A stretch of DNA of 64,000 bases from Mycolicibacterium sp. (GTDB lineage: Bacteria; Actinomycetota; Actinomycetes; Mycobacteriales; Mycobacteriaceae). Shown in pieces: positions 21,270 to 61,295 of this stretch; positions within the stretch are counted from its first letter, which is position 1; every line of letters starts with the position of its first letter. The position numbers were made by a program, and so were the translations under genes. The stretch lies in assembly GCF_050250295.1 (NCBI RefSeq), contig NZ_JBFWOX010000012.1; one strand, 5' to 3'. The notes below the pieces were generated by a model. That model worked only from the letters and a program-made list of their open reading frames with translations. It was not told where the DNA came from and ran no database searches.

Positions 21270-21956
21270 GTGAGCATCCCCGAGTTCGCGGCCCGGCCCC
21301 AGTTGGCCGAGGACGTCGCACGCTTCGTGCGCCGGCGCATCTTCGAGGGCACCTACCCGGCCGGGCAGTACATCCGGCTCGAACAGCTCGCCGACGAACT
21401 CGGCATCAGCGTCACCCCGGTGCGCGAGGCTCTCTTCGGGCTGCGGGCCGAGGGCCTGCTGACCCAGCTGCCGCGTCGCGGCTTCGTCGTGCTGCCGATC
21501 ACCCGGCGCGACATCGCCGACGTCGCCGACGTCCAGGCCCACATCGGCGGCGTGCTGGCCAGCAGGGCCGCTGACCACATCACCGACGAGCAGCTGCAGA
21601 CACTCGGCGCCATCCAGGACCGGCTGGAGGCCGCCTACCGCGCCGACGACCACGAGGCCGCGGTGCGCCTCAACCACGCGTTCCACCGCGGCATCAACCT
21701 CGCGGCGGCCTCGCCCAAACTCGCCCAGCTGATGGGGCAGATCACCCGTTTCGCGCTGGAGACGGCCTATCCCACGGTCGAGGGCTGGCCGTCGCACGCC
21801 ACCCGCGATCACCGGCTGTTGTTGACGGCGCTGAAGAACCGCGACGGTGACGCCGCCCGGGCGGCCATGTCGGATCACCTGCGCGCCGCCGCCACTCCGC
21901 TCATCGACCACTTGACCCGACGCGGCGTCGTCGACCCCGGCGATAACATACTGTAA
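21270..21956 (+). CDS. GntR-family transcriptional regulator, FadR/FCD subfamily
   Basis: N-terminal wHTH (LEQLADELGISVTPVREALFGLRAEGLL) and a C-terminal all-helical FCD-like domain. It lies 6 nt after the ACAD stop. Confidence 0.85.
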   Translation: MSIPEFAARPQLAEDVARFVRRRIFEGTYPAGQYIRLEQLADELGISVTPVREALFGLRAEGLLTQLPRRGFVVLPITRRDIADVADVQAHIGGVLASRAADHITDEQLQTLGAIQDRLEAAYRADDHEAAVRLNHAFHRGINLAAASPKLAQLMGQITRFALETAYPTVEGWPSHATRDHRLLLTALKNRDGDAARAAMSDHLRAAATPLIDHLTRRGVVDPGDNIL

Positions 21957-21967
21957 GTCTTACAGTC
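21949..21967. promoter_or_regulatory. Operator-like palindrome TACTGTAAGTCTTACAGTC
   Basis: ACTGTAAG-T-CTTACAGT is a perfect 8-bp inverted repeat. It overlaps the GntR stop codon (TAA 21954-21956) and ends 25 nt upstream of the CoA-transferase ATG. Confidence 0.6.
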
Positions 21968-21991
21968 CGATTATCGACGAAGAGGCGGGTC

Positions 21992-23203
21992 ATGGGCAAC
22001 GGCTCCACGGGCGGCCCGACCGCCGTCCTCGACGGCGTACGCGTGCTCGACTACGGCCGGTTCATCGCCGCGCCCTGGTGTTCGGCGCTGCTGGCCGACA
22101 TGGGTGCCGACGTGGTGCGGGTGGAGAAACGCGAAGGGGGCGAGGACCGTTGGGTCCAGCCGGTCACCGACGGTGGCGAGGGCGGCACCTTCCTGCAGTG
22201 CAACCGCAACAAGCGCTCGCTGACGCTGGACTCGACCACCGCCGAGGGCAGGGTGATCACCTGCAGGCTGGTCGCCGGCGCCGACATCGTGGTCGCCAAC
22301 ATGCCCGCGGCGGCGATGCGGGCCAGCGGACTGGACTACGACACGCTGCGGGCGATCAACCCCGATATCATCCTGGCCAGTGCCACCGCGTACGGCGAGG
22401 GCGGCCCGTACAGCGACCGGATCGGCTTCGACGGCGCCGGACAGGTGATGTCGGGCGCGGTGTACCGGCAGGGGCTGGCCGACCAACCGATCCGAACCGT
22501 GGTGCCCTACGCCGACTTCGGCACCGCGCTGACGCTGACCATCGGCGTGATGATGGCGCTGTACCACCGCGACCGCACCGGTGAGGGTCAGCACGTACAG
22601 GGGGCGTTGCTGCCCACCGCGATGATGCTGTCGAACGCCTTCCTGATCGAACGAGACCTGCTCGGCGCGGACAAGCCCCGGATGGGCAACCGCGGTACCT
22701 CGGTGGCGCCCTGCGACCTGTACCGCACCCGCGACGACGGCTGGGTGCTGCTGCAGATCGCTGGTGCGCCCATGTTCACCCGGTGGTGCGCGCTGGTCGG
22801 CCGGCCCGAGCTCGTCGACGATCCGCGTTTCGCCGACGACGACCTGCGCTGGCGCAATGGCGACGTGCTCAACGACATCATGGCGCGATGGTGCGCCGAC
22901 AAGACCAAGACCGAGCTCCTCGCACTGCTGGAGTCTGCGAAACTGCCTGCCGCACCGTTGCACTCGCCGCAGGAGGTGCTCGACGACCCGCACGTGGCGG
23001 AGATGGGCTACCTGCAGCGGGTACCGTTCCCCGGTGCGGCCCATGATGTGCCGCTCATCGAGACCCCGTTCCGGCTCTCGGCCACCCCGGGCACCATCCG
23101 CAGCCGCGCCCCACTGCTGGGCGAGCACACCGAGGAGATCCTCGGCGAGATCGGCTACACCGGTGACCAGGTCGCTCGGCTGCGGGAGCAGCGGGTGGTG
23201 TGA
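21992..23203 (+). CDS. Family III CoA-transferase (CaiB/BaiF type)
   Basis: 403 aa. Motifs LDGVRVLDYGRFIAAPW, GADVVRVE, DRIGFDGAGQVMSG. Confidence 0.9.
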   Translation: MGNGSTGGPTAVLDGVRVLDYGRFIAAPWCSALLADMGADVVRVEKREGGEDRWVQPVTDGGEGGTFLQCNRNKRSLTLDSTTAEGRVITCRLVAGADIVVANMPAAAMRASGLDYDTLRAINPDIILASATAYGEGGPYSDRIGFDGAGQVMSGAVYRQGLADQPIRTVVPYADFGTALTLTIGVMMALYHRDRTGEGQHVQGALLPTAMMLSNAFLIERDLLGADKPRMGNRGTSVAPCDLYRTRDDGWVLLQIAGAPMFTRWCALVGRPELVDDPRFADDDLRWRNGDVLNDIMARWCADKTKTELLALLESAKLPAAPLHSPQEVLDDPHVAEMGYLQRVPFPGAAHDVPLIETPFRLSATPGTIRSRAPLLGEHTEEILGEIGYTGDQVARLREQRVV

Positions 23204-23206
23204 CGG

Positions 23207-25413: not shown

Positions 25414-25421
25414 CGGGTTCC

Positions 25422-26273: not shown

Positions 26274-27124
26274 CTGCCCTGGAAGCGAGGCGCCCGGCGG
26301 GCCCGGAACGCGGCCAGCCCTTCCTTGAAATCATCGGTCCGGCAGGATAGTTCGAGGCTGGCCAGCTCGTGGGCCATGGATTGCGGCAAGGTGGCCAGTG
26401 CGCTGTGGCCGATGGCCGCCTTGGCCAGCCCGATCGCGACCGTCGGGCCGGTGGCCAGCCGGGCCACCAGTTCCTCTGCGGCGGCGTCGATCTCGTCGGG
26501 CGGTGCGGCGTGATGGATCAGCCCCCAGTCGGCGGCCTCGGCGCCGGTCACCTTCTCGCCGAGCATCAGCATGCGCTTGGCGCGGGCCACCCCGGCCAGG
26601 CGGGGCAGCAGCCACGTCGAACCGGAATCCGGGCTGAACCCCCGGTCGACGAACGGCTCCCAGAAGTTCGCATCGGTGGCGGCGACGGTGAAGTCCGCGG
26701 CCAGCGCGAGGTTGGCGCCGAGCCCGACCGCCCAGCCCCGCACCGTGCAGACGACCGGCAGCTGGATGGTGGCCACCAGTTCGACGACGCGGTTGGCCTG
26801 GAGCGGGACGCGCCGGACGAGATTTCCGGGGCGAGGTTTGCGATCGGCGCTGTTGGTGCTCGCCCAGTCCGCGCCCGAGCAGAAGTCGGATCCAGCCCCG
26901 GTCAGGTGGATCACCCGCAGCGCGTCGTCGGTGGCCGCTCGGGTAAGGATCGCGATGAGCTCGTCGATCATCCTGTGGCTCAGCGAATTACGCCGTGCGG
27001 GTCGGTCCAGGGTGATTCGCAGGACGGCGCCGTCGCCCGCGGTTCGTACCGCGCCTGTGTCCGCGTCGTCACGCACCGGGCACCGTCCCTTCGGCACTGC
27101 ACCGCGAGCTATACAGATAGCCAT
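26270..27124 (-). CDS. Enoyl-CoA hydratase/isomerase family
   Basis: Motifs ITLDRPARRNSL, FCSGADW, GWAVGLGANLALAAD. The start could instead be GTG 27076. Confidence 0.8.
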   Translation of the reverse strand: MAICIARGAVPKGRCPVRDDADTGAVRTAGDGAVLRITLDRPARRNSLSHRMIDELIAILTRAATDDALRVIHLTGAGSDFCSGADWASTNSADRKPRPGNLVRRVPLQANRVVELVATIQLPVVCTVRGWAVGLGANLALAADFTVAATDANFWEPFVDRGFSPDSGSTWLLPRLAGVARAKRMLMLGEKVTGAEAADWGLIHHAAPPDEIDAAAEELVARLATGPTVAIGLAKAAIGHSALATLPQSMAHELASLELSCRTDDFKEGLAAFRARRAPRFQGR

Positions 27125-27185
27125 ACAGTTAGTACTACAATTACTATCCTGTACAACTTAGCAAGGAAAGGCTGTCGAGGGAACA

Positions 27186-27974
27186 GTGTCGTCTCAGCTG
27201 CCGACGCCGCGCATTCGCCAGCCGCGGGTCGCCGAACTCGTGGCGTCCCGGCTGCGCGGTGACATCCTGGCCGGCCGCCTCAAGGAGGGCGACGTGCTGC
27301 CGTCACAGGAGGCGCTGTTCGCCGAGTTCGGGGTCAGCCCACCCGCGGTGCGGGAGGCCATCCACATCCTGGAATCCGATGGCCTGGTCTCGGTGCGGCG
27401 CGGCAACGTCGGCGGGGCCGTGGTGCACCTGCCGTCGGCCGAACGCACGGCCGAGATGATCGGCATGGTGTTGCAGACGCGCTCGGCGACTCCCGCCGAC
27501 GTCAGCGAGGCGCTGCTGCACCTGGAGCCGATCTGCGCCGGGATGTGCGCGGCCCGCGAGGACCGACTGACCGAGGTGGTGCCGTTCCTGCGGGCGGCCA
27601 TCGATACGCAGGTCGAACAGTTCGACGTCACGGCCCGCTACGTGCCCAACGCGCGCCGCTTCCACGAGGCGATCGTGTCGCGGTGCGGCAACGAGCCGAT
27701 GATCCTGCTCATCGGCGCGCTGGAGGTCATCTGGTCGGCGCACGAGTCCGCGGTGTGGAGCGACGAGTACCAGCCGGGGGATCCGATGCGGCCCACCACG
27801 ATGGCCGCGGCGCTGCGCGATCACCGGCGACTGCTCGACGCGATCGTCGAAGGGAACTCCGTACGGGCGGTCCGTCTTGCGCAGGATCACCTGGCGGCCG
27901 CGCGACGCAACACGCTGGCCGCCGGGTCGGACCGGACCATCGAGGCGAAGCTGATCGCCGATCGCGACAGATGA
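27186..27974 (+). CDS. GntR-family transcriptional regulator, FadR/FCD subfamily
   Basis: GTG start. wHTH (LPSQEALFAEFGVSPPAVREAIHILESDGLV) plus an FCD-like C-terminal domain. Divergent from the three-crotonase operon. Confidence 0.85.
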   Translation: MSSQLPTPRIRQPRVAELVASRLRGDILAGRLKEGDVLPSQEALFAEFGVSPPAVREAIHILESDGLVSVRRGNVGGAVVHLPSAERTAEMIGMVLQTRSATPADVSEALLHLEPICAGMCAAREDRLTEVVPFLRAAIDTQVEQFDVTARYVPNARRFHEAIVSRCGNEPMILLIGALEVIWSAHESAVWSDEYQPGDPMRPTTMAAALRDHRRLLDAIVEGNSVRAVRLAQDHLAAARRNTLAAGSDRTIEAKLIADRDR

Positions 27975-28902: not shown

Positions 28903-28980
28903 TCCGGCCCACCTACTACCAGCGCTACAATATCTGCTAGTTTTGTAACGTCTGTCCGCCATGGAACCGAGGTCGAGAGC

Positions 28981-30156
28981 ATGCCAACACCCGTCATCGT
29001 CGGTGCTGCCAGGACGGCCATCGGCCGCTCGTTCAAGGGCGCCCTGGTCAACACCCCACCCGAGACGCTGATCACCGCGGTGCTGCCGGAGATCATCCGG
29101 CGCTCCGGTGTCGACCCCGCGGACGTCGACGACCTGATTTTCGCCGAATCCCATTACGGCGGCGGTGATCTCGCGCGTTATGCGGCCGATGCGACGGGGC
29201 TGGCGCACGTGCCGGGGCAGTCGGTGAACCGGCACTGCGCGGGCAGTCTGACCGCGATCGGCAATGCGTCGGCGCAGATCGGCTCCGGGATGGAGCGCGT
29301 GCTGATCGCCGGTGGCGTGCAGTCGCTGTCGATGACGCCGCTGGTCAACTGGCGCATCCCAGGTCCGGAGCTGAAGTTCGAGGAGCGCTGGATGCCGCCC
29401 ACGCACGTGGAGACGCCCGACGCGCCGACCCGCGACATGTCGATCACCGTCGGCTGGAACACCGCGCAGGCCGCGGGCATCACCCGCGAGGAGATGGACG
29501 CCTGGGCCGCGCGCTCACACCAGCGCGCCGTCGCCGCCATCGACGCCGGCAAGTTCGTCGACGAGATCGTCCCGCTCAAGGTCGAACAGTTCGATGGCAC
29601 GGTGGTCGACTTCAGCGTCGACGAACACCCCCGCCGCGACACCACCGTCGAGAAGCTCGCGGCGCTCAAGGTGCTGCACCCCGAGATCGAGGGCTTCTCG
29701 ATCACCGCGGGCAACAGCAGCGGCACCAACGACGCGGCGGCCGGCGTCGCCGTCGTCGAGGCCGGCTACGCCGCCGCCAACAACCTCGACGTGATGGCCA
29801 CCGTGCGGGCCTGGGGTGCGGTGGGGGTGGCCCCACGCGACACCGGGCTGGGCGGGGTGAAGGTCATCGGCAAGGTCCTCGACCGTGCCGGGCTGGACCC
29901 GTCGGACGTGACGCTCTGGGAGATCAACGAGGCCTTCGCGTCCGTGCCGATCGCGGCGGTGCGCGAGTACGGCCTCGACGAGCAGCGGGTGAACTTCTCC
30001 GGAAGCGGTTGCAGCCTCGGCCATCCCATCGCGGCCTCGGGTGCGCGGATGGTCACCACGCTGGTCTACGAGCTGCGCCGTCGCGGCGGCGGCATCGGGG
30101 TCGCCGCGATGTGCGCCGGCGGCGGCCAGGGCGGCGCGGTCGTCGTCGAGGTCTGA
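28981..30156 (+). CDS. Acetyl-CoA C-acyltransferase (thiolase)
   Basis: Motifs VIVGAARTAIGRSFKG, NRHCAGSL, GCSLGHPIAASG, CAGGGQG. Confidence 0.9.
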   Translation: MPTPVIVGAARTAIGRSFKGALVNTPPETLITAVLPEIIRRSGVDPADVDDLIFAESHYGGGDLARYAADATGLAHVPGQSVNRHCAGSLTAIGNASAQIGSGMERVLIAGGVQSLSMTPLVNWRIPGPELKFEERWMPPTHVETPDAPTRDMSITVGWNTAQAAGITREEMDAWAARSHQRAVAAIDAGKFVDEIVPLKVEQFDGTVVDFSVDEHPRRDTTVEKLAALKVLHPEIEGFSITAGNSSGTNDAAAGVAVVEAGYAAANNLDVMATVRAWGAVGVAPRDTGLGGVKVIGKVLDRAGLDPSDVTLWEINEAFASVPIAAVREYGLDEQRVNFSGSGCSLGHPIAASGARMVTTLVYELRRRGGGIGVAAMCAGGGQGGAVVVEV

Positions 30157-30257: not shown

Positions 30258-31004
30258 TCAGCGTTTGCGCGCGGTGCTCTTGGTGGCCTTGCGGGCGGGT
30301 TTGGCGCTCGTCCCGATGAGCCGTTCGGCGTGACCGAGGATGCACTGCAGGCCGAACTCGAAGTTGCGGTCGTCCGGCGCGCTCAGGTGGTGGCCCTCCC
30401 GGGTGACCGCGGCCAGCAGCGGCGCGCTCTGCGGATCGAACGCCATCGTCTCGTCGATGTCGCCGTGGGCGTCCTCGCCGGCCAGGTTCTTGTCCCGCAG
30501 CCGCTGCAGCACCACCGAACCACGCACGTGCACCGAGATCGCCGAGTAGGTGTCGAAGGCGTCGTCGGGTGAGAGACCCGCCTCGACCAGGCTGCCGATC
30601 GCCTTCTCCACCTCCTGCGCGCCCACTTTCGCCGCGCGCGGGCTCAGCGCCGAGCGGATCAGGATCAGGTCGGCCAGGATCGGGTTGCCCAGGAAGGTCT
30701 CTCGCATCGAGCGGGCGTGATTGGCCAACGTCTCGCGCCAGTCCTTGGCCTCGACGTAGGGCGTGGCGAAGGCGTACTGACTCAACGCGCGGTCGGTCAT
30801 CGCGTTGAGCAGGTCGTCCTTCTTGCGGAAATACCAGTAGATGCTCGTGACGCCGACACCGAGGTGCTTGCCCAGCAGCGGCATGCTCAGGTTGTCGATG
30901 CCGACCTGCTCGGCCAGTTCGAAGGCGCCCTTGATGATGTCGTCGGGGTTGATGGATCCGCGTTCGCGCCGTGGCCGCTTCTGCGCGGCCGCCTGCTTCG
31001 CCAC
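30258..31004 (-). CDS. TetR/AcrR-family transcriptional regulator
   Basis: GTG start. HTH motif LSMPLLGKHLGVGVTSIYWYFRKKDDLL. Lys/Arg-rich C-terminal tail. Confidence 0.9.
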   Translation of the reverse strand: MAKQAAAQKRPRRERGSINPDDIIKGAFELAEQVGIDNLSMPLLGKHLGVGVTSIYWYFRKKDDLLNAMTDRALSQYAFATPYVEAKDWRETLANHARSMRETFLGNPILADLILIRSALSPRAAKVGAQEVEKAIGSLVEAGLSPDDAFDTYSAISVHVRGSVVLQRLRDKNLAGEDAHGDIDETMAFDPQSAPLLAAVTREGHHLSAPDDRNFEFGLQCILGHAERLIGTSAKPARKATKSTARKR

Positions 31005-31247
31005 TGTCGGGCACCTCCATCGTCTCGATGCTGCGTGAGCAGCCGCCGAAGCGGCATAGTAGTCCTGCGTCCGGCGACAGCGGCCACGCTGGCCTGCAGC
31101 TTTGCCGCCGCGTCGCGGTGTCCCCGCGTCCGCGACCTTACCGTCGGGGTGCGGACCGGCCGCTGCGGTCAGCGTTCCGCCCTTTTACCGTAAGTCCTAT
31201 AGTAAGTTTTTCCGGCATCGGCGACATCGGAAGGTGAAGGGCGACAG

Positions 31248-32826: not shown

Positions 32827-32988
32827 CGGAACCGCGGTTCTGAGGATGGATATCGGTGTAGTGCAACGACTTTCGCCATCGGTGTGCCGGCCCGACCCGG
32901 GCCGGCGTACCACCAGGACGAGCACCTGCCCGAGCCATTACCGATAGGTGTACAGTATGGGCATCTATCAGGCGGAGGAGGTCTGTCG

Positions 32989-35051: not shown

Positions 35052-35053
35052 CG

Positions 35054-41870: not shown

Positions 41871-41950
41871 GCGGTGGCGGCCATCAGCAGGATAGGGTGA
41901 GATTTACTGAAAGCACAACCGGATGGATTACAGGAGATGGTCGCCGAGAG

Positions 41951-45971: not shown

Positions 45972-45990
45972 TACTGTAATCGTTACCGTT
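45972..45990. promoter_or_regulatory. Operator-like palindrome TACTGTAATCGTTACCGTT
   Basis: Lies in the divergent CoA-transferase / ALDH intergenic region. It matches the TACTGTAA-N3-TTACAGTA core with 2 mismatches. Confidence 0.5.
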
Positions 45991-46023
45991 GGTCATCCAA
46001 GATCGTTCGTGGAGGAGGTGCCG

Positions 46024-48802: not shown

Positions 48803-48841
48803 TACACCGACATACTGTAATAGTTACAGTATGTCGGTGTA
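48803..48841. promoter_or_regulatory. 39-bp palindrome with 18-bp perfect arms centred on TACTGTAA-TAG-TTACAGTA
   Basis: TACACCGACATACTGTAA TAG TTACAGTATGTCGGTGTA, read directly. It lies between the divergent P450 (start 48768) and ALDH (start 48921). Confidence 0.7.
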
Positions 48842-48920: not shown

Positions 48921-50396
48921 ATGGCAGCACCGTTCGACGACCGCCGCCACCCGGGCACGCTCACGGCCGCCGTCGAACACCAGCGCCGGGCATTCGTCGC
49001 CGACGGCCCACCGGATGCCGCCCTGCGCCGCAACCGGATCGATCGGCTGCTGGCTCTAGTGCTGGACAACACCGACGACTTCGTCGACGCGATGGCAGCC
49101 GACTTCGGCACCCGGCCGCGCGCCGGGTCGCTGTTCGCCGAGATCATGGGCATGCTCTCGGTCATCGAGCACACCAGAGCCCATGTGCGGCAATGGATGA
49201 AACCCGTCACGGTGCTGCCGGTGGCACGCCCGTTCGGGCTGCGCGGCGAGGTGCATCCGTCGCCGCTGGGCGTGGTCGGGATCATCGGGCCGTGGAACTT
49301 CCCGGTGAACCTCGTCATCCTGCCCGCCGCAGCGGCTTTCGCCGCGGGCAACCGCGTGATGATCAAGATGTCGGAGGTCACCCCGCGCACCGCCGAGTTG
49401 ATGAAGACCCTGGCGCCCGCCTACTTCGACCCCGCCGAACTGACCGTCGTCACCGGCGACGCCGAGGTCGCGGCCCGGTTCGCGGCGCTGCCGTTCGACC
49501 ACTTGTTCTTCACCGGGTCGCCGCGCGTCGGGGCGCTGGTCGCGCAGGCCGCCGCGGCGAACCTGGTGCCGGTGACCCTCGAGCTGGGCGGCAAGAACCC
49601 GGTGGTGGTGTCGCCCCACGCCGATCTGCACCGCGCCGCCGCGCGCATCGCGGCCGCCCGCATGATCAACGGCGGGCAGGTGTGCGTGTGCCCGGACCAC
49701 GTCTTCGTGCCCGCCGGCAGGGTCGAGGCGTTCGTGGCCGTCGCCCGCGACACGTTGCGCGGCATGTTCCCGTCGATCCTGGCCAACGACGACTACTGCT
49801 CGGCGGTCGACGAGGCCAACTTCGACCGGATCGTCGGCCTCGTCGAAGACGCCCGCGCCAAGGGCGCCCGGGTCGAGACCGTGGCACCGCCGCACGAGGT
49901 GCTGCCGGACCGCAACACGCGCAAGATCGCGCCCACGCTGCTGCTCGACGTCGACGACAGCATGCACATCGCCGACGAGGAGACCTTCGGGCCCGTCCTG
50001 ACCGTGCGCCCCTACACCGAGCTGCGCGATGTCGTCGACTATCTCATCGCACGCCCGGCCCCGCTGGTGGCCTACTGGTTCGGTCCGGACGACGCCGACT
50101 TCCGGACCTTTGTGTGCCACACCCGCAGCGGCGGAGTGGCCCGCAATGACTTTGCCGCCCAGATGATTCCGTCGGCGGCGCCGTTCGGCGGCGTCGGCCG
50201 CAGCGGCACGGGCGCCTACCACGGCAAGGCAGGCTTCGACGCGTTCAGCCACTACCGCACGGTCGTCGGCAGCGATCTGCCGGTCACGATCACCGGCCGC
50301 GCGGCACCGCCGTTCACCCCGGTCACCCGCATCGGCACCGCCCTGAGCCTGCAGCTGGCGCGGCGCCGGACCCGGCGGCGGCTCAGGACGCGGTGA
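48921..50396 (+). CDS. Aldehyde dehydrogenase (coniferyl-aldehyde dehydrogenase-like subfamily)
   Basis: ATG follows GGAGG. Motifs ELGGKNP, INGGQVCVCPDHVFV, PFGGVGRSGTGAYHG. Confidence 0.9.
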   Translation: MAAPFDDRRHPGTLTAAVEHQRRAFVADGPPDAALRRNRIDRLLALVLDNTDDFVDAMAADFGTRPRAGSLFAEIMGMLSVIEHTRAHVRQWMKPVTVLPVARPFGLRGEVHPSPLGVVGIIGPWNFPVNLVILPAAAAFAAGNRVMIKMSEVTPRTAELMKTLAPAYFDPAELTVVTGDAEVAARFAALPFDHLFFTGSPRVGALVAQAAAANLVPVTLELGGKNPVVVSPHADLHRAAARIAAARMINGGQVCVCPDHVFVPAGRVEAFVAVARDTLRGMFPSILANDDYCSAVDEANFDRIVGLVEDARAKGARVETVAPPHEVLPDRNTRKIAPTLLLDVDDSMHIADEETFGPVLTVRPYTELRDVVDYLIARPAPLVAYWFGPDDADFRTFVCHTRSGGVARNDFAAQMIPSAAPFGGVGRSGTGAYHGKAGFDAFSHYRTVVGSDLPVTITGRAAPPFTPVTRIGTALSLQLARRRTRRRLRTR

Positions 50397-52035
50397 CGGC
50401 CTGCTCGCGGGCCCACCGATAATCGGCCTTGCCGGCCGGGCTGCGCTCGATCGCCGGCCGGAACACCACCGCCTTGGGCAGCTTGTAGCGGGCGATCACC
50501 GTCGCGGCGTGCTCGATCAACTCCCCGGCCGTCGCGTTCGCCCCGTCGGCGAGGGCGACGACCGCGACCACCTCCTGGCCCCAGCGCTCGCTCGGCCGGC
50601 CGGCCACCACGACGTCGGCGACGGCCGGGTGCGAGGCGATCGCCGACTCCACCTCCTCGGCGAAGATCTTCTCGCCGCCGGAGTTGATGGTCACCGAATC
50701 GCGGCCCAGCAGTTCGACGGCGCCGTCGGCGAGGTGGCGCGCGCGATCGCCGGGCACCGAGTACCGGACTCCGGCGATGACCGGGAAGGTGGCCGCGGTC
50801 TTGGCGGCGTCGCCCTTGTAGCCCAGCGGCACGTAGCCGCGCTGGGCCAGCCAGCCGATCCCGTCGTGGCCAGGCGCCAGGATCGAGCTGAGATTCTCTG
50901 CGGCGACGAAGGTATCGGGTCCGGCGTTGAACGTGCCGGTCGATACCGCGCCCGGCGCGGACATGTGCGTCATCTGCGCGCCGGTCTCCGAGGATCCGAC
51001 ACCGTCGACCACCATCAGGTTGGGCTTGGCGTCGATCAGGCGTTGTTTGGCGGTCGGCGTCAGCTGCGCACCGCCGTTGGCCACCACCGCCAGCGAGGAC
51101 AGGTCGACGTCGGTGCGCGCGAACGCGTCGGCCAGCGGGCGGGCCATCGCGTCGCCGACGACGGTGACGGCCAGCGCCTTCTCCCGCTCGATCGTGGCCA
51201 CCACGTCGTCGACGTCGAGGTGGCTCGTGACGGCGGAGAACACCACGGTCTGACCGGTGTTCATCGCGGTGAAGACCGCCCACTGCGCGGCGCCGTGCAT
51301 CAGCGGCGGCAGCACCATCAGCGTCGAGGTGGGCGCCGTGGCGCAGCGCTGAGCGAGGTCGTCCAGCGTCGTGACCAGCTCGCCGGTGTAGAGGCTGCGG
51401 CCGCCGAACGACGTCATGAAGATGTCGTGCTGGCGCCACAGCACGCCCTTGGGCATGCCGGTGGTGCCGCCGGTGTAGAGCACATAGAGGTCGTCGGGCG
51501 ACGGCTCGACGGGCGGCGGTGTGGCCGGGCCTTCGGCCACGATCGACTCGTAATCCACGGCACCGGGCAACAATTCGATGCCCGAGTCATCGGCGATCTG
51601 GATCAGCAGCTTCAGCGCGGGCAGCTCGGCGCGCACCTCGGCCAGCCGCGGCGCGAACGCGGCGTGGTACAGCAGCGCGGTCGCACCGGAGTCGGCCAGC
51701 AGGTACTGCAGCTCGGCCTTGACGTAGCGGTAGTTGACGTTGAACGGGGCGACACGGGCCCGCCAGGCGCCCAGCATCCCCTCGACGTACTCGGGCCCGT
51801 TGTGGGCGTAGATGCCGAGCAGGTCTTGCCCGACCTCGTGGCCCGCCAGCTGCGAGCGTTCGGTGTGACAACCCAGGCCTCGGGCGTGCAGGAACGCGGC
51901 CAACCGGGTCGAGCGCTCCACGATCTGCGCATATGTGTAGCGGCGCTCGCCATGGACGATGAACTCGCGGTCGCCGATCACCGCCGCGACGGCGTCGGCG
52001 GCGGCCGGGACGGTGAACTCTGTCGGCTCGGTCAT
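50383..52035 (-). CDS. Acyl-CoA synthetase (FadD-like)
   Basis: Motifs VLYTGGTTGMPKGVLW, DGVGSSETG, TINSGGEKIF, PAGKADYRWAREQA. Its 3' end overlaps the convergent ALDH by 14 nt. Confidence 0.9.
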   Translation of the reverse strand: MTEPTEFTVPAAADAVAAVIGDREFIVHGERRYTYAQIVERSTRLAAFLHARGLGCHTERSQLAGHEVGQDLLGIYAHNGPEYVEGMLGAWRARVAPFNVNYRYVKAELQYLLADSGATALLYHAAFAPRLAEVRAELPALKLLIQIADDSGIELLPGAVDYESIVAEGPATPPPVEPSPDDLYVLYTGGTTGMPKGVLWRQHDIFMTSFGGRSLYTGELVTTLDDLAQRCATAPTSTLMVLPPLMHGAAQWAVFTAMNTGQTVVFSAVTSHLDVDDVVATIEREKALAVTVVGDAMARPLADAFARTDVDLSSLAVVANGGAQLTPTAKQRLIDAKPNLMVVDGVGSSETGAQMTHMSAPGAVSTGTFNAGPDTFVAAENLSSILAPGHDGIGWLAQRGYVPLGYKGDAAKTAATFPVIAGVRYSVPGDRARHLADGAVELLGRDSVTINSGGEKIFAEEVESAIASHPAVADVVVAGRPSERWGQEVVAVVALADGANATAGELIEHAATVIARYKLPKAVVFRPAIERSPAGKADYRWAREQAVTAS

Positions 52036-52227
52036 GGCAGGGACTCTAGACGGACAGATGCCCGGAGTGGACAGGTGCCTGGATACTGTATGGTCATGGT
52101 GCGGTCGTCCAGGTGCCGAGCAGCGCGTCGGTGGTGGTCACCCTCGCCGGCAGGGCCCGTCGACGCGGCGCCGCAGCAGGCAGTGCACGAGCGCGGTGAT
52201 GGGCGGGCGCCATCAGCTCCGCGGGCC

Positions 52228-53223
52228 TCACCGAGCGGGAACCTCGTAAAACTGTTGGGCCCATTTCCGCATCGTCATATAGGGTTTCGCGTCGATCTTG
52301 GCCAGCGGCGGGTGCTCGACGTACTTCTGATAGCGCCAGATCTCACAGTCCTCCCACACGGTCTTGAGGAACTGCCGCTCGACCTTCTCGCGAACCTCAG
52401 GTGGCGGCGCGTCCGACGTCTCACCGGCGACCTTGGGCCACCAGATCGAATAGAAGATGTCGGAGACCTCGTCGTCGACGGGGGTGCACGCGAAGATCAG
52501 CCGGTGGTTCGAGGAGCCCTCGAAGGCGCTCACCGCGAAACCCAGGCCGCTGAAGTGGCTGTGGATGTTCAGCGCCATCGCGTCCGGGTCGTCGCTGCGG
52601 GGGTCGGGCCAGCCGGTCAGGAACCGCCACTCCTCGTCGACGTGTTCCCAGTGCAGGCACACCGGGGTGACCGTCGCCTTGTGCACGTACCGGAAATGTG
52701 AACTGTCCGGGCCGTTCTCGGCAACGATCTGGGGATGCACCGGGATCGCGTCGGCTCGGCTGGAGAACTCCGGGTAGGGCCGGTAGTAGGCGCTGGGGTC
52801 GGTCTCGAACTGCGGGAACTTGTGGAAGAGGTCGGGGATCTCCCACCTCGGCGGCTCGCCCGCGGGCTGGTGCCACACGAAGATGCACCCGTACTGCTCC
52901 CGGACCGGATACGACCGCAACCGCAGCGCGCGGTTGGGGCGGTCGGGCTGATACGGGATGTAGGTGTTGTCGCCCTTCGGCCCCCACCGCCAGCCGTGGA
53001 ACGGGCACTCGATGCAGTCGCCGACGACCGTCCCGCCGTGCCCGATGTGCGCGCCGAGGTGCTTGTAGTGTGCCTCCAGCACGTGCAGCTGTCCGGCCTT
53101 ATCGCGATAGGCGGCCAGGTCTTCCCCGAAGTACCTGAGCGCCTTGACTTCACCGATCGGGTACTCCGCGGACCACCCGATCATGAACCATCCGGTCACC
53201 TTCCAGGTGAACGGGACCTTCAT
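52228..53223 (-). CDS. Rieske-type non-heme iron oxygenase alpha subunit (KshA-like architecture) with atypical cluster motif
   Basis: ATG 53223 (MKVPFTWKVTGWF). The Rieske region reads AHYKHLGAHIGHGGTVVGDCIECPFHGWRWG, so Tyr53 (codon 53065-53067) sits where the first Cys ligand is expected. Confidence 0.75.
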   Translation of the reverse strand: MKVPFTWKVTGWFMIGWSAEYPIGEVKALRYFGEDLAAYRDKAGQLHVLEAHYKHLGAHIGHGGTVVGDCIECPFHGWRWGPKGDNTYIPYQPDRPNRALRLRSYPVREQYGCIFVWHQPAGEPPRWEIPDLFHKFPQFETDPSAYYRPYPEFSSRADAIPVHPQIVAENGPDSSHFRYVHKATVTPVCLHWEHVDEEWRFLTGWPDPRSDDPDAMALNIHSHFSGLGFAVSAFEGSSNHRLIFACTPVDDEVSDIFYSIWWPKVAGETSDAPPPEVREKVERQFLKTVWEDCEIWRYQKYVEHPPLAKIDAKPYMTMRKWAQQFYEVPAR

Positions 53224-53283
53224 GGGCGACCCCCTGCCGCGGCGGATCGGCCGGATCCGCACACACGTTTCTCTGGACGTCGA

Positions 53284-53302
53284 TACTGTAACAGTGACAG
53301 TA
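53284..53302. promoter_or_regulatory. Operator-like palindrome TACTGTAACAGTGACAGTA
   Basis: Lies between the divergent Rieske oxygenase (start 53223) and the BVMO remnant (start 53324). One mismatch to the core. The flanking bases extend it to ATACTGT...ACAGTAT. Confidence 0.6.
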
Positions 53303-53323: not shown

Positions 53324-54734
53324 GTGACGAGCGAGCATGGCCGATTCGATGCGATCGTTGTCGGTGCGGGGTTCTCCGGACTCTACGCGCTGCACCATCT
53401 GCGGGCGCGCGGGCTGCGCGTGCGGGTGCTCGAACGCGAGAACGCCGTCGGCGGCCGTGGTTGGTCAACCCTTATCCGGGGGCGCGCTGCGACATCGAGA
53501 GCATCGAGTACTCCTACAGCTTCTCCGAGCAGATCCAGCAGGAGTGGATGTGGCCCGAGACCATGCCGGCACAACCGGAGATCGAGGCGTACCTGAACTT
53601 CGTCGCCGACCGCCTCGACCTGCGCCGCGACATCACCTTCGACACCGAGGTCGTCGCGATGACATTCGACGAGGACACCGCCGAGTGGCTGGTGGCGACG
53701 GCGACGGGGGAGTCGTTCGTCGCCCCGTTCGTCGTCGCCGCCACCGGCATCCTGTCGGTGCCGTTGGAGCCGTCGATCTCGGCGATGGACACCTTCACGG
53801 GTCAATCCGTGTTCACCAGCCGCTGGCCGCACCACGGAATGGACCTGGCGGATCGTCGAATCGGGGTGATCGGCACCGGGTCCACCGGTGTGCAACTGAT
53901 CCCGGTGGTGGCGCGGGACGCCGCTCACCTCACCGTGTTCCAGCGGTCCCCGGCGTACACGTTGCCGGAGGTGCGCGCGTTCGAGTCGGGTGAGCTCGAC
54001 GAACTCGAGGCCCGCTACCCCGAGATCCGCGATGCGCAGCGCGAGCACCCGGGGGGTGCGGCGCGGCATCGTCACCGACCCGGACACTGCCAGGGCGCTG
54101 ACCCCGACCTACCCCTTCGCGTGCAAACGCCCGATCATCGACCAGGGCTACTACCAGACCTTCAACCGCGAAAACGTGACTCTGGTCGACCTGCGCACCG
54201 ACCCGATCGTGTCGGTGCGGCCCGGGATGATCGAGACCGGGCGCGGCCTGCACGAGTTCGACGTCATCGTTTACGCAACGGGTTTCGACGGGATGACCGG
54301 CGCGCTGCGTTGCATCGCCGTCCGCGGCCGGGCCGGGTCGTCGCTGGGGGAATTCTGGGCCACCGAGGGACCGCTGAGCTACCTCGGCATGGCCGACCAT
54401 CCAAGGTCCCGGAAGCCCCTCGGCGGCAGCGATTTTCGTCGCCGCGATGGAGCAGAACGTGGAATGGATCGGTGCCTGTATCGCGCACCTGCGCGAGCAG
54501 GGCTACCGGACGATCGAGGCACTGTCCGACGCGCAACAGGACTGGATCGACCCGGCCACCGCGCTGGTGGCGCCCACCGTGCTGGTCCACCCGTCCTGTC
54601 ACTCCTGGTACAACGGCGGCAACGTGCCCGGCAAGAAACGCATGTACATGGGTTACACCGCGGGCATCCCCGAGTACCGCAGACGGTGCGACGGGATCGC
54701 CGCCGACGGTTACACGGGGTTCAAGCTCGCGTGA
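53324..54734 (+). pseudogene. Baeyer-Villiger (cyclohexanone-type) flavin monooxygenase, disrupted
   Basis: Segment 1 FDAIVVGAGFSGLYALHHL...ENAVGG runs to a frameshift near 53456. Segment 2 WLVNPYPGARCDIES...RIGVIGTGSTGVQ runs to a frameshift at the G-run 54051-54056. Segment 3 IVTDPDTARALTP...VIVYATGFDGMTG...YLGMA ends at a junction near 54395, where the expected GFPN-type segment is missing. Segment 4 TIQGPGSPS...MEQNVEWI...GYTGFKLA runs to the stop. Confidence 0.8.
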
Positions 54735-54795
54735 AGTAGGCCATGGCAGGATCACCGGGAACCGGCACATGCGGCCGCGAGCAAGGAGACTGGGC

Positions 54796-57377: not shown

Positions 57378-57441
57378 GCGCAGACTCCTGTCCTCTCGCG
57401 ACGTTGACCTTACTGAATTGCTTACTGTAGCTTCGACCATC

Positions 57442-58479
57442 ATGGGTGCTGGAGGCGGCCTGAAGGTGGACGCCGGCGTCGTCAGTCAACTAACCGCAGT
57501 TCCGGGCGCCGCGAGCACGCTGGAGCGGCGCGGCTACGACGGCTGCTGGACCGCCGAGATCAACCACGACCCGTTCCTGCCGCTGACGCTGGCCGCCGAG
57601 CACACCAGCACCATCGAGCTCGGCACCAGTATCGCGGTGGCGTTCGCCCGCACCCCGATGACAGTGGCCCAGATCGGCTGGGACCTGCAGGAGTACTCGC
57701 GCGGCCGGTTCCTGCTCGGGCTCGGGTCGCAGATCAAGCCGCATGTGGAGAAGCGGTTCAGCATGCCGTGGGGCTCACCGGTGGCGCGGATGCGGGAGTT
57801 CGTGGCGGCGCTGCGGGCGATCTGGGCGTGCTGGCGCGACGGCGACCCGCTGGATTTCCGCGGCGAGTTCTACACGCACACGCTGATGACGCCGATGTTC
57901 ACCCCGTCGGCCCACCCCTACGGCGACCCCGAGATCTTCCTGGCCGCGGTCGGGGACCGGATGACCGAGATGTGCGGCGAGGTCGCCGACGGTCTACTAA
58001 CACATGCGTTCTCCACCCGGCGCTATCTCGAGGAGGTGACCCTGCCGACGCTGCGGCGCGGTCTCGAGAGGGCCGGGCGGCGGCGCGAGGACGTGCAGGT
58101 GGCCAGCCCGTTGTTCGTCGTGACCGGCCGCGGCGAACAGGAGCTGGCGGCGGCCGCGGCGGCGACGCGTAAGCAGATCGCGTTCTACGCCTCCACCCCG
58201 GCCTACCGCGGCGTGCTGGAGCTACACGGGTGGGGTGAGCTGCAGGCCGAGCTGCACCGGCTCTCCCGCCGAGGCGACTGGGACCCGATGGGCTCGCTGA
58301 TCGACGACACCATGCTCACCGAATTCGCGGTCGTCGCCGTCGTCGACGAGTTGGTGCCGCGGATCCGGAGCCGGTGCGACGGCCTGATCGACCGTGTGCT
58401 GGTGGGGTTTCTGTCATCCATCGACGAGGCGACCGTCGCGGAGGTCGTCGCACAACTGCAAGCTGGGGAGGCGCAGTGA
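57442..58479 (+). CDS. Luciferase-like monooxygenase class, probably F420-dependent oxidoreductase
   Basis: Motifs LERRGYDGCWTAEINHDPF, RFLLGLGSQ. The start is uncertain (ATG 57442 or a downstream GTG). Confidence 0.8.
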   Translation: MGAGGGLKVDAGVVSQLTAVPGAASTLERRGYDGCWTAEINHDPFLPLTLAAEHTSTIELGTSIAVAFARTPMTVAQIGWDLQEYSRGRFLLGLGSQIKPHVEKRFSMPWGSPVARMREFVAALRAIWACWRDGDPLDFRGEFYTHTLMTPMFTPSAHPYGDPEIFLAAVGDRMTEMCGEVADGLLTHAFSTRRYLEEVTLPTLRRGLERAGRRREDVQVASPLFVVTGRGEQELAAAAAATRKQIAFYASTPAYRGVLELHGWGELQAELHRLSRRGDWDPMGSLIDDTMLTEFAVVAVVDELVPRIRSRCDGLIDRVLVGFLSSIDEATVAEVVAQLQAGEAQ

Positions 58480-59714: not shown

Positions 59715-59789
59715 CGCGGCCACCCCGCACGCGCCACGCGCGACCCACTCGCTCGCGCCACGCGCGCCCACTCGCTCGCGCCCACCTCG

Positions 59790-59852
59790 CGCCGAAATTG
59801 CATTCCAGCAGGGCCTCACTCGAACTTTCGCTGCTGGAATGCAATTTCGGCG
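59790..59852 (+). repeat. 63-bp REP-like palindromic element, copy 4
   Basis: Same arms as copy 1. Loop GGCCTCACTCGAACTTTCG. Preceded by a 23/24-bp tandem duplication at 59731-59777. Confidence 0.95.
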
Positions 59853-59907
59853 GGGAAGTGCCGGCTGTCGGGGGTGGCGGCCGCCTCGGCGGGCTCGCGG
59901 GTGCCGG

Positions 59908-61215
59908 CTAGCTTCCGGAGTTGCCGCGGGCGGCGGCGTGCAGCGCGTCGAAATGACCTGCGCCCCCGCCACGCTCACCTTCCTGGTGGTGTGACAGCGC
60001 CCGGATGGAGACGTCGTGGCCTTCGGCGGCCTTGCGCAGCGCGCCGACGGTGGCCTGGTCCTTGGGGATGTGGGTGAACGGATCCCAGTGATACCAGCGC
60101 ATGGCGTTCTGGTAGGTCATCTTGTCGATCTCGTCGTCGGGTACGTCGTTGGCGTCGAGCACCTCGCCGAGTTGCTCGGGCGCGCCCGGCCACATCGAGT
60201 CGCTGTGCGGGTAGTCGGCCTCCCAGCAGATGTTGTCCACCCCGATCTGATTGCGCAGCGCGACCCCGACGGGATCGGAGATGAAGCAGGTCAAGAAGTG
60301 CTCCCGGAACACCTCGCTGGGCAGCTTGGGCCCGAAGTCCTGCCCGGTCCAGGTCGAGTGCATCTCATAGGTGCGGTCCACCCGTTCCAGGAAGTACGGG
60401 ATCCAGCCGGTGCCCCCCTCGGACAGCGCGATCTTGAGCGACGGGTACTCCTTGATCGGCCGCGACCACAACAGGTCCGCCGCGGCCTGCACGATGTTCA
60501 TCGGCTGCAGCGTGATCATCACGTCCATCGGGGCATCCGGTGCGGTGATGGCCAGCCGCCCCGACGAGCCGATGTGCACGTTGAGCACCGTGTCGGTGTC
60601 GACCAACGCGTCCCACATCGGCTTCCAGTGGTCGAAGTCGTGGAAGCTCGGATAGCCCATCGCCGCCGGGTTCTCGGTGAACGTCAGCGAGTGCACACCG
60701 CGCTCGGCGTTGCGGCGGATCTCCTTGGCACACTCGACCGGATCCCAGATCACCGGCAGCGTCATCGGGATGAACCGCCCCGGATAGGCGCCGCACCATT
60801 CCTCGACGTGCCAGTCGTTGTACGCCTTCACCAGCGCCAGCGAGAACTCCGGATCCTCGGTGGCGAACAGCCGCCCGGCAAAGCCCGGGAACGACGGAAA
60901 ACACATCGAGCCCAGGATCCCGCCGGCGTTCATGTCCTTGACCCGCTCATCGACCCGCCAGCAGCCCGGCCGGATCTCGTCGAGCCCCTGCGGCTCGAGC
61001 CCGTACTCCTGCTTCGGCCGGCCCGCCACGGCGTTGAGCGCCACATTCGGGATCACCACATCCCGGAACTGCCAGGTATCCGAACCGTCCGGGTTGTGCA
61101 CCAGCCGCGGCGCCTCACCGAGGTACTTCTGCGGCAGATGATTGGCGAACATGTCCGGCGGCTCCACGATGTGGTCGTCCACGCTGATCAGGATCATATC
61201 GTCCTTGTGCACCAC
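59908..61215 (-). CDS. Amidohydrolase_2 family protein
   Basis: Motifs ISVDDHIVEPPD, WEADYPHSDS. Start is GTG 61215, or the ATG six codons downstream. Confidence 0.75.
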   Translation of the reverse strand: MVHKDDMILISVDDHIVEPPDMFANHLPQKYLGEAPRLVHNPDGSDTWQFRDVVIPNVALNAVAGRPKQEYGLEPQGLDEIRPGCWRVDERVKDMNAGGILGSMCFPSFPGFAGRLFATEDPEFSLALVKAYNDWHVEEWCGAYPGRFIPMTLPVIWDPVECAKEIRRNAERGVHSLTFTENPAAMGYPSFHDFDHWKPMWDALVDTDTVLNVHIGSSGRLAITAPDAPMDVMITLQPMNIVQAAADLLWSRPIKEYPSLKIALSEGGTGWIPYFLERVDRTYEMHSTWTGQDFGPKLPSEVFREHFLTCFISDPVGVALRNQIGVDNICWEADYPHSDSMWPGAPEQLGEVLDANDVPDDEIDKMTYQNAMRWYHWDPFTHIPKDQATVGALRKAAEGHDVSIRALSHHQEGERGGGAGHFDALHAAARGNSGS

Positions 61216-61295
61216 GACGTTCCGTTCTGTGCGCCCTTACCGTAGGGACGACAGTTTAGCCCGGCGCGGGTGGCCGCCTCAATGGATCCCCGATC

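What the first reader, a model, noticed from the sequence alone, without database searches (positions are those of the whole stretch)
21949..61256. Recurrent AT-rich palindrome ATACTGTAA-N3-TTACAGTAT marks promoter regions across the catabolic cluster (candidate regulon)
Four strong sites were read directly: 21949-21967 TACTGTAAGTCTTACAGTC; 45972-45990 TACTGTAATCGTTACCGTT; 48813-48831 TACTGTAATAGTTACAGTA; 53284-53302 TACTGTAACAGTGACAGTA. Four weaker sites share the same 8-3-8 geometry: 31186-31204 TACCGTAAGTCCTATAGTA; 32939-32957 TACCGATAGGTGTACAGTA; 57411-57429 TACTGAATTGCTTACTGTA; 61238-61256 TACCGTAGGGACGACAGTT. Every site lies in a divergent or upstream intergenic region: CoA-transferase; CoA-transferase/ALDH; P450/ALDH; Rieske/BVMO; TetR/echA; echA; carboxyltransferase/LLM-P450; amidohydrolase. 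A 16-position AT-rich palindrome is not expected even once by chance in 64 kb of high-GC DNA. This implies one dimeric regulator co-ordinates operons that look functionally heterogeneous. Candidates in the window are the TetR (30258-31004, with a weak site in its own divergent promoter) and the two FCD-type GntR proteins (21270-21956, whose stop codon is overlapped by a strong site, and 27186-27974).
Basis: partly seen in the sequence, partly recalled or inferred. Interest (0 to 1): 0.75.

Follow-up and report, generated by a model that had tools for sequence, protein, structure and literature searches.

The report
Shared repressor-binding site across lipid-degradation operons
A 19-base palindrome recurs in front of about ten operons of a fat/steroid-like degradation gene cluster in a soil Mycolicibacterium and is strongly conserved in related species; it is most likely the binding site of the TetR-type repressor encoded in the cluster, which makes it a solid but conventional regulon prediction.

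Summary
TACTGTAA-N3-TTACAGTA occurs 6 times at ≤3 mismatches (0 expected) and 14 times at ≤5 (0.61 expected). Eleven sites beat every shuffle in a PWM scan. All lie in promoter regions between 21.9 and 61.3 kb.

The sites are conserved at the same promoters in 160 related loci:
- The P450/ALDH site is perfect in 22 of 29 loci, while its flanks and 3-nt spacer vary freely.
- None of 288 sites (≤3 mismatches) in 2.4 Mb falls inside a conserved gene.
- Operon-internal genes have no site.

In several promoters a half-site coincides with a −10-like hexamer (TACAGT/TATAGT), or the site fills the −35/−10 spacer. This points to repression by promoter occlusion.

The best candidate binder is the TetR (30258-31004):
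- Its own upstream site is invariant in 78 of 81 species and stays with the gene after rearrangements.
- Its DNA-reading helices are invariant.
- A paralogue with the same recognition helix sits in the P450 operon behind a perfect or near-perfect site in other genomes.

GntR1 has a different conserved palindrome (18043-18061) at its own operon's promoter. The motif also does not fit FadR-type GntR geometry.

This is a new member of a known kind: a TetR repressor regulon. Binding and ligand are untested.

The parts
48813..48831 (.). Operator, perfect consensus TACTGTAATAGTTACAGTA, in the P450 (47566-48768, -) / ALDH (48921-50396, +) divergent promoter
   Evidence: 0 mismatches; PWM 33.6 bits. 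The orthologous site is perfect in 22 of 29 loci and has 1 mismatch in 7 of 29, with unconserved flanks and spacer.
45972..45990 (.). Operator TACTGTAATCGTTACCGTT in the CoA-transferase III (44698-~45960, -) / ALDH (46009-47565, +) divergent promoter
   Evidence: 2 mismatches; PWM 27.6. Sites with 1-2 mismatches are present upstream of the orthologous ALDH1 in 7 of 9 loci and of CoAT2 in 8 of 15.
21949..21967 (+). Operator TACTGTAAGTCTTACAGTC. It ends 24 nt upstream of the CoA-transferase III start (ATG 21992) and overlaps the TAA stop codon of GntR1.
   Evidence: 1 mismatch; PWM 27.5; sequence read. No orthologous comparison was available: in the three loci where this CoA-transferase follows the thiolase, it has no site of its own.
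57411..57429 (.). Operator TACTGAATTGCTTACTGTA between the carboxyltransferase (55881-~57400, -) and the F420-type LLM oxidoreductase (~57442-58479, +). It lies between a −35-like TTGACC and a −10-like TAGCTT, 8 nt before the ATG.
   Evidence: 3 mismatches; PWM 26.5. The same sequence, including its spacer, is conserved in 13-14 loci.
53284..53302 (.). Operator TACTGTAACAGTGACAGTA, centred in the 61-bp gap between the KshA-like Rieske oxygenase (52228-53262, -) and the disrupted BVMO gene (53324-, +)
   Evidence: 1 mismatch; PWM 25.2. A site of ≤5 mismatches is present upstream of the KshA orthologue in 72 of 74 loci. The left half is invariant and the right half is variable.
31186..31204 (.). 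Operator TACCGTAAGTCCTATAGTA in the TetR (-) / enoyl-CoA hydratase (31248, +) divergent promoter; candidate autoregulatory site
   Evidence: 3 mismatches; PWM 24.9. The orthologous site TACTGTAAGnCCTATAGTA is nearly invariant in 78 of 81 loci while the flanks vary. It is retained in rearranged loci L022, L046 and L059.
32939..32957 (+). Operator TACCGATAGGTGTACAGTA upstream of the operon echA(GTG 32989)-amidohydrolase-fadD-amidohydrolase-fadE-fadE. Its right half, TACAGT, is a −10-like hexamer, with a conserved TTGCGG 19 nt upstream.
   Evidence: 4 mismatches; PWM 21.6. The same site is conserved in 67 of 67 loci, with a conserved −35-like block.
27112..27142 (.). Two overlapping weak sites 12 bp apart (27112-27130 TACAGATAGCCATACAGTT and 27124-27142) in the divergent promoter of echA-echA-echA-fadD (-) and GntR2-echA(-thiolase) (+)
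   Evidence: 5 mismatches each; PWM 21.6 and 16.1. The orthologous site has 3-5 mismatches in 63 of 67 loci, always next to the echA start.
41905..41923 (-). Degenerate site upstream of the thioesterase-thiolase-like operon (41870 -> 39876, -)
   Evidence: 5 mismatches; PWM 13.9, just above the shuffle maximum of 11.8. Related genomes carry 1-2 mismatch sites upstream of the thiolase-like gene and the Mo-oxidoreductase gene.
61238..61256 (-). Weak candidate site upstream of the amidohydrolase_2 gene (59908-61215, -)
   Evidence: 5 mismatches; PWM 13.5. Only one comparable locus (L103) reaches this promoter; it has a 4-mismatch palindrome 52 nt upstream of the orthologue.
28914..28932 (+). Very weak candidate site upstream of the thiolase (28981-30156, +)
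   Evidence: 5 mismatches; PWM only 6.2, within the shuffle range. The orthologous position has 3-5 mismatches in 40 of 72 loci and lies beside other conserved blocks.
30258..31004 (-). TetR-family regulator (248 aa; TetR_N + TetR_C_1), the proposed binder of the operator
   Evidence: Pfam. The closest NCBIfam model is the tetracycline repressor, matched over its full length but below the cut-off. Helices IDNLSMPLLGKHLGVGVTSIYWYFRKKD are invariant in 81 orthologues. A paralogue with the same recognition helix lies in the P450 operon of other genomes.

Best explanation
The 19-bp palindrome TACTGTAA-N3-TTACAGTA is the operator of a TetR-family repressor. In this window that repressor is the 248-aa TetR at 30258-31004.

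Proposed mechanism: a TetR dimer binds the two half-sites, whose most conserved cores (nACnGT) are 12 bp apart. The operator sits on the core promoter. In several promoters one half-site is itself a −10-like hexamer (TACAGT, TATAGT or TACTGT). At the LLM promoter the operator fills the −35/−10 spacer. Bound repressor would therefore block RNA polymerase. At divergent promoters a single dimer could shut both directions.

About ten transcription units (roughly 35 genes, 21.9-61.3 kb) are placed under one switch: enoyl-CoA hydratases, acyl-CoA dehydrogenases and ligases, thiolases, CoA-transferases, two P450s, ALDHs, a KshA-like oxygenase, LLM oxidoreductases and a carboxyltransferase. The repressor's own gene carries a conserved imperfect site. 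An unidentified ligand, probably a pathway substrate or acyl-CoA intermediate, would release the repressor.

Shown here: the sites exist, they are non-random, they sit at promoters, they are conserved, and they are linked to the TetR gene.

Inferred: binding by this TetR, repression rather than activation, the promoter elements (no transcription start sites are known), and ligand control.
For: Non-randomness: 6 sites at ≤3 mismatches against 0 expected; 14 at ≤5 against 0.61; 11 sites above all 60 shuffles.

Footprints at orthologous promoters:
- P450/ALDH: 22 of 29 perfect, with flanks and spacer near zero information.
- TetR/echA: 78 of 81.
- echA_f: 67 of 67.
- KshA: 72 of 74; carboxyltransferase/LLM: 13-14 loci.
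- 0 of 288 sites (≤3 mismatches) lie inside the 55% of 2.43 Mb covered by conserved genes.
- No site upstream of the operon-internal genes fadD_c, P450b, LLM1 or thioN.

Link to the TetR:
- The site 48-200 bp upstream of the TetR is nearly invariant. It persists in L022, L046 and L059, where the upstream neighbour has changed.
- The TetR helix-turn-helix is invariant in 81 orthologues at a mean overall identity of 80%.
- Loci chosen through the KshA gene, not through any regulator, contain a TetR paralogue in 8 loci. It is 46-57% identical, with recognition helix VGVTSIYWYFR(K/R)KD(D/E)LL. In the five loci inspected closely a 0-1 mismatch site lies within 1.5 kb, and where mapped the paralogue lies directly downstream of the P450. 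A GntR appears in only 1 of 80 loci.

Family fit: TetR_N + TetR_C_1, and a 19-bp two-fold symmetric operator.
Against: No binding experiment exists.

GntR2 is syntenic with the TetR in most genomes, and its operon also starts at a promoter carrying the motif. Linkage alone therefore cannot exclude it.

The TetR-centred loci were selected through the TetR gene, so its constant presence there is by construction.

The strongest sites lie 15-23 kb from the TetR, and its own site is one of the weaker ones.

Genomes of the M. phlei group carry a second paralogue with the same reading head. If a copy exists outside this window, it could be the main binder of the distal perfect sites.

The −10/−35 assignments are made by eye; the E. 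coli-type promoter scan found nothing.
Confidence: 0.68

Rival explanations
1. One of the two FCD-type GntR regulators (GntR2 27186-27974 or GntR1 21270-21956) binds the palindrome. The TetR would then be only a regulon member.
For: The GntR2 operon starts at a divergent promoter carrying the motif (27112/27124), and this is conserved. GntR2 is syntenic with the cluster in about 69 of 81 loci. A strong site overlaps the 3' end of GntR1. In L103 the GntR1 operon is divergent from KshA with a 1-mismatch site between them.
Against: The promoter of the SDR-thiolase-fadE-GntR1 operon has no TACTGTAA site. It carries a different palindrome instead, ATCGTATATGAAATACGAT (18043-18061). That palindrome is single-copy in the window and conserved in the 4 other loci that reach this promoter.

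From general knowledge, FadR-subfamily GntR operators have the form T-GT-N(1-3)-AC-A. Here GT and AC are 7 nt apart.

A GntR appears in 1 of 80 KshA-centred loci, against 8 with a TetR paralogue.

The GntR2 DNA-binding region varies in 39 of 69 columns. The TetR varies in 11 of 56 at the same overall identity, and none of those lie in its α2-α3 helices.
Confidence: 0.12
2. A regulator encoded outside the 64-kb window binds the strong distal sites. The most likely candidate is a copy of the TetR paralogue ('TetR-B', M. phlei type). The local TetR would then serve only the proximal variant sites with CTAT-type half-sites (27112, 31186, 32939).
For: TetR-B exists, and many genomes carry both paralogues on the same contig. 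The proximal sites share an unusual, strictly conserved half-site (CTATAGTA / CTATCGGTA / CTATCTGTA), whereas the distal sites are canonical. The two paralogues differ in helix α2 (MPLLGK against MPQLAK).
Against: The recognition helix is the same in both paralogues apart from K/R and D/E exchanges. In the window lineage and its closest relatives (L082, L121, L130) TetR-B is absent from the P450 operon, yet the distal sites stay perfect. No species from the window's closest clade appears among the 120 best TetR-B homologues, although that list is truncated.
Confidence: 0.15
3. The motif is not a regulator site. It is a promoter architecture (two back-to-back −10 hexamers), or a DNA/RNA hairpin or repeat element.
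For: Half-sites match the mycobacterial −10 pattern TANNNT. The best site is embedded in a 35-nt perfect palindrome with a predicted fold of −24 kcal/mol.
Against: Both halves are conserved at unidirectional promoters too (21949, 32939). Positions outside any −10 hexamer (A7, A8, T12, T13) are also conserved. The other sites have no hairpin stability, with z-scores of −0.1 to −0.9. The long palindrome is not conserved: the extension is 0-3 bp in 26 orthologous sites. At the KshA site one half drifts with no compensating change in the other. Flanks differ between sites, so it is not a mobile repeat.
Confidence: 0.04

Closest known systems
Tn10-type TetR / tetO
   Same: The closest sequence models are the tetracycline repressors, matched over the full length (PDB 5mru E=3e-18; NCBIfam NF010319 positions 3-196 of 199). 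Both have a 19-bp two-fold symmetric operator. Both place the operator in a divergent promoter between the repressor gene and a regulated gene, overlapping core promoter elements, with autoregulation.
   Different: The score is far below the TetR equivalog cut-off (83 against 265 bits). The operator sequence is different. The targets are about ten catabolic operons, not one efflux gene. There is a single operator per promoter rather than two tetO. The ligand is unknown.
KstR and KstR2 regulons of mycobacteria (TetR-type repressors of steroid/lipid catabolism)
   Same: One TetR-family repressor controls many lipid- or steroid-type catabolic operons (fadE, fadD, echA, P450, KshA-type genes) through a short palindrome in promoter regions. 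The regulon is conserved across mycobacteria.
   Different: The motif is different (from knowledge: KstR TnnAACnnGTTnnA, KstR2 AnCAAGnnCTTGnT). Matches to the KstR and KstR2 consensus patterns in the window all lie at coordinates inside genes. The regulator here belongs to the TetR_C_1 branch.
SimR-type TetR regulators with an N-terminal basic arm
   Same: SimR is among the PDB sequence matches (2y2z, E=4e-10). Both paralogues here carry a conserved basic N-terminal stretch, RxRRxRGSI, which could contact the AT-rich centre of the operator.
   Different: This is only an analogy. No structure or DNA contact was tested here, and SimR controls an antibiotic exporter.

Membership tests
TetR-family repressor with palindromic operator | N-terminal TetR-type helix-turn-helix plus an all-helical C-terminal ligand/dimerisation domain | tested here: met
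   PF00440 (2.9e-13) and PF02909 TetR_C_1 (1.1e-13). Full-length match to tetracycline repressors in PDB and NCBIfam.
TetR-family repressor with palindromic operator | Two-fold symmetric operator of about 15-20 bp | tested here: met
   8-3-8 palindrome. The core is exactly 19 bp, with no conserved symmetric extension.
TetR-family repressor with palindromic operator | Operator next to the regulator's own gene (autoregulation, usually at a divergent promoter) | tested here: met
   A site lies 48-200 bp upstream of the TetR in 78 of 81 loci and is retained after rearrangement.
TetR-family repressor with palindromic operator | The protein binds the operator and is released by a small-molecule ligand | not testable with these tools
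   Needs EMSA, DAP-seq and ligand screening.
Tetracycline repressor proper (NCBIfam NF010319) | Score above the curated equivalog cut-off | tested here: not met
   83.2 bits against a cut-off of 265.
FadR-subfamily GntR operator | Short palindrome with a central GT-N(1-3)-AC core (consensus recalled from the literature) | tested here: not met
   In the motif, GT (positions 5-6) and AC (14-15) are 7 nt apart, and the three central positions carry no information.
KstR / KstR2 regulon | KstR (TnnAACnnGTTnnA) or KstR2 (AnCAAGnnCTTGnT) box in promoter regions | tested here: not met
   Five near matches to TAGAACNNGTTCTA and one to the KstR2 pattern, all at coordinates inside genes.

The most novel reading that the evidence does not exclude
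Two paralogous TetR repressors have the same DNA-reading head but different ligand domains: TetR-A (248 aa, with an insertion of about 20 residues in the C-terminal domain) and TetR-B (about 211 aa). They would share one operator set, so two different metabolite signals would be integrated at the same promoters. The operator would also be built from the −10 hexamers of back-to-back promoters, so that one dimer silences both directions. In the window lineage TetR-B would have been lost and replaced by an ALDH gene with an extra operator, leaving TetR-A as sole controller.
Probability: 0.25. Interest if true: 0.5.

Novelty: new member of a known kind. Interest (0 to 1): 0.38.

Why it matters
It ties about 35 poorly annotated catabolic genes into one predicted regulon with a sharply defined operator. 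These include P450s, a KshA-like oxygenase, F420-type oxidoreductases, CoA-transferases and many β-oxidation enzymes. The regulon is conserved across many environmental mycobacteria.

The practical gain is direct. Finding the ligand of one TetR, or deleting it, should reveal the substrate of the whole pathway. The operator can also be used to find further regulon members in complete genomes.

It does not challenge any concept, because TetR-controlled lipid and steroid regulons are well known in mycobacteria.

Tried and rejected
- Literature string searches for the half-sites, with 'mycobacter' or 'TetR operator', returned only unrelated primer and sequence hits.
- A keyword search for a TetR/KshA/BVMO regulon and a search for M. 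smegmatis locus tags around MSMEG_2256 found nothing relevant. I therefore could not show that the regulon is already described. Subscription-journal papers are not covered.
- KstR and KstR2 boxes were rejected: the matches lie at coordinates inside genes.
- The hairpin or RNA-element reading was rejected: only the 48813 site folds well, and its extension is not conserved.
- The E. coli-type promoter scan found no promoters in 45.9-57.5 kb. This is uninformative for mycobacterial promoters.
- The plasmid search found no annotated plasmid copy of the distal cluster.
- The PDB sequence search found no close solved relative for the TetR or either GntR.
- Covariation between the TetR helix-turn-helix and its operator could not be used, because both are invariant.
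- An LexA-type (CTGT-N8-ACAG) or CRP-type (TGTGA-N6-TCACA) reading was rejected on spacing alone. That comparison is from memory and was not scanned.


Full report
**1. Observation**

The window is about 69% G+C.
- Against TACTGTAANNNTTACAGTA there are 6 sites with ≤3 mismatches, where 100 dinucleotide-preserving shuffles gave none.
- There are 14 sites with ≤5 mismatches, against 0.61 expected.
- A PWM built from orthologous sites puts 11 window positions above the best score of 60 shuffled windows.

The extra positions are a pair at 27112/27124 (echA/GntR2 divergent promoter) and a degenerate site at 41905. The most conserved positions are A2, C3 and G5 and their mirror images. The three central bases carry no information.

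**2. Context**

The TetR is 100% identical to a protein from a Mycolicibacterium sp.. I mapped genes by third-position G+C and Pfam.

From 16 to 62 kb the window is a dense lipid/steroid-like catabolic cluster. It holds enoyl-CoA hydratases, acyl-CoA dehydrogenases and ligases, thiolases, two family-III CoA-transferases, two ALDHs, two P450s, a KshA-like Rieske oxygenase, a BVMO, two LLM oxidoreductases, a carboxyltransferase and amidohydrolase_2 proteins.

It encodes three regulators: GntR/FCD at 21270-21956, GntR/FCD at 27186-27974, and TetR at 30258-31004. Every site above the shuffle threshold lies in a promoter-proximal gap at the head of a transcription unit. The first 21 kb have none.

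**3. Conservation**

I fetched 80 genome loci centred on TetR orthologues (74-88% identity) and 80 metagenome loci centred on the KshA-like gene (70-89%).
- TetR/echA site: present in 78 of 81 loci as TACTGTAAGnCCTATAGTA, nearly invariant, while the sequence 20 bp away is unconserved.
- echA_f site: present in 67 of 67 loci.
- P450/ALDH site: perfect in 22 of 29 loci and one mismatch off in the other 7. Flanks and the 3-nt spacer are close to zero information.
- KshA: a site in 72 of 74 loci. The carboxyltransferase/LLM, CoA-transferase/ALDH and thiolase-like/Mo-enzyme promoters also keep their sites.
- Operon-internal genes (fadD_c, P450b, LLM1, thioN): never a site.
- Across 2.43 Mb of these loci, all 288 sites with ≤3 mismatches lie outside the 55% of sequence covered by conserved protein matches.

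Binding by a local regulator remains untested.

**4. What the site does**

The footprints extend into promoter-like elements.
- Upstream of echA_f, a conserved TTGCGG lies 19 nt before the right half-site TACAGT.
- At echA_e the right half is TATAGT.
- At the LLM gene, the operator fills the gap between a conserved TTGACC and a TAGCKT hexamer that ends 8 nt before the ATG. This suggests a leaderless transcript (sequence).
- At the P450/ALDH promoter, the two half-sites read as TACAGT on opposite strands, facing outwards.

Sites end about 13-90 nt before start codons. This is the arrangement of a repressor that occludes the core promoter. No transcription start data exist, so the promoter elements are inferred.

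A structural element is unlikely. Only the 48813 site folds well, because it is embedded in a 35-nt perfect palindrome. That extension is absent from 26 orthologous sites. At the KshA site, one half drifts with no compensating change in the other.

**5. Which regulator**

Evidence pointing to the TetR:
- Its upstream site is the most constant feature of all 81 loci. It stays with the gene in rearranged loci (L022, L046, L059) where the neighbouring echA gene is gone.
- Its helices α2-α3 (IDNLSMPLLGKHLGVGVTSIYWYFRKKD) are invariant in 81 orthologues at 80% mean identity. The GntR2 DNA-binding region varies at 39 of 69 positions.
- The KshA-centred loci were not chosen through any regulator. In 8 of them there is a TetR paralogue 46-57% identical. 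Its recognition helix is the same as the window TetR's, apart from K/R and D/E exchanges. In the five loci inspected closely, a 0-1 mismatch site lies within 1.5 kb of it. Where the order was mapped, it lies directly downstream of the P450. A GntR appears in only one of the 80 loci.
- This paralogue is the M. phlei type and coexists with the first TetR in several genomes.
- A 19-bp two-fold symmetric operator in a divergent promoter is the classic TetR arrangement.

Evidence against the GntRs:
- The promoter of the SDR-thiolase-fadE-GntR1 operon carries a different palindrome, ATCGTATATGAAATACGAT (18043-18061). It is unique in the window and conserved in the four other loci that reach that promoter. 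This fits a local operator for GntR1.
- The motif does not have the short GT-N(1-3)-AC core expected for FadR-type GntR proteins. That consensus is from my own knowledge.

GntR2 cannot be excluded by linkage, because its operon also starts at a motif-bearing promoter.

**6. Open nuance**

The proximal sites near the TetR (27112, 31186, 32939) share a strictly conserved variant half-site (CTATAGTA, CTATCGGTA, CTATCTGTA). The distal sites are canonical. In genomes with two paralogues this could reflect a division of labour.

In the window lineage the second paralogue is absent from the P450 operon. An ALDH gene with its own operator (45972) occupies that place. Whether a second copy exists elsewhere in this genome could not be checked.

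**7. Comparison with known systems**

The regulator is a TetR-family protein of the TetR_C_1 branch. It resembles tetracycline repressors over its full length but scores far below their family cut-off.

Functionally, the closest analogues are the KstR and KstR2 regulons of mycobacteria. Matches to the KstR and KstR2 consensus patterns in the window all lie at coordinates inside genes, and the operator here is different.

I found no description of this motif or regulon in the searchable literature. That search does not cover subscription journals.

**8. Verdict**

The most likely binder is the local TetR (about 0.68).

This is a new member of a known kind: a well-supported but conventional repressor-operator regulon. 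Its main value is as a handle on an uncharacterised catabolic pathway.

Noticed in passing
window 18043-18061: A second, different AT-rich palindrome, ATCGTATATGAAATACGAT (7-5-7). It lies in the divergent promoter between fadE (16819-17982, -) and the SDR-thiolase-fadE-GntR1 operon. It is single-copy in the window. It is conserved as ATCATATATGAAATAYGAT in three of the four other loci that reach this promoter (L046, L053, L061) and with one further change in L103. It is a candidate GntR1 operator.
   Followed up: partly
window 53324-54740: The BVMO gene next to the 53284 operator is broken. Its homology runs through three reading frames, and about 62 residues are missing compared with the intact 552-aa orthologue in L082. 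This is either a pseudogene or assembly indels.
   Followed up: partly
window 14691-15671: An FMO/BVMO-like remnant with two in-frame stop codons, probably a decayed gene.
   Followed up: partly
window 48805-48839: The perfect operator is embedded in a 35-nt perfect palindrome, CACCGACATACTGTAATAGTTACAGTATGTCGGTG (predicted fold −24 kcal/mol). The 8-bp extension on each side is specific to this lineage and absent from 26 orthologous sites.
   Followed up: yes
window 28903-28980 and 27145-27175: Beside the weak thiolase site lie strongly conserved blocks that are not part of the motif: AGTGA-N7-TCAC and ATCTGCTAnTTTTGTAAAGTC. A similar GCTAAGTTGTACA box lies in the GntR2/echA gap. They are unexplained and may be a GntR2 operator or a 5' leader element.
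   Followed up: no
L085-L087, L105, L107, L127, L148, L157 (for example L105:16930-17565): A shorter TetR paralogue (about 211 aa, M. phlei type, roughly 50% identical) with the same recognition helix lies near the P450 gene, directly downstream of it where the order was mapped. In the window lineage, an ALDH gene plus the 45972 operator occupy that position.
   Followed up: partly
L022:9862, L041:9860, L059:9858, L031/L032:9890 and others: A second, weaker site, CCCGGTAAGGTTGACAGTA, lies 59 bp closer to the TetR start in a subset of genomes. In the window only the GGTAAGG part survives (about 31127-31140).
   Followed up: no
window 2318, 19559, 45587, 58174, 58611: There are five near matches to the KstR-type box TAGAACNNGTTCTA against 0.17 expected, but all lie at coordinates inside genes. 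This is probably a codon-composition effect, not operators.
   Followed up: no
window 52084-52090: A lone perfect half-site, TACTGTA, lies between fadD (50383-52035) and the KshA-like gene. No site is conserved upstream of the fadD orthologue in 31 loci, so it is probably chance.
   Followed up: yes
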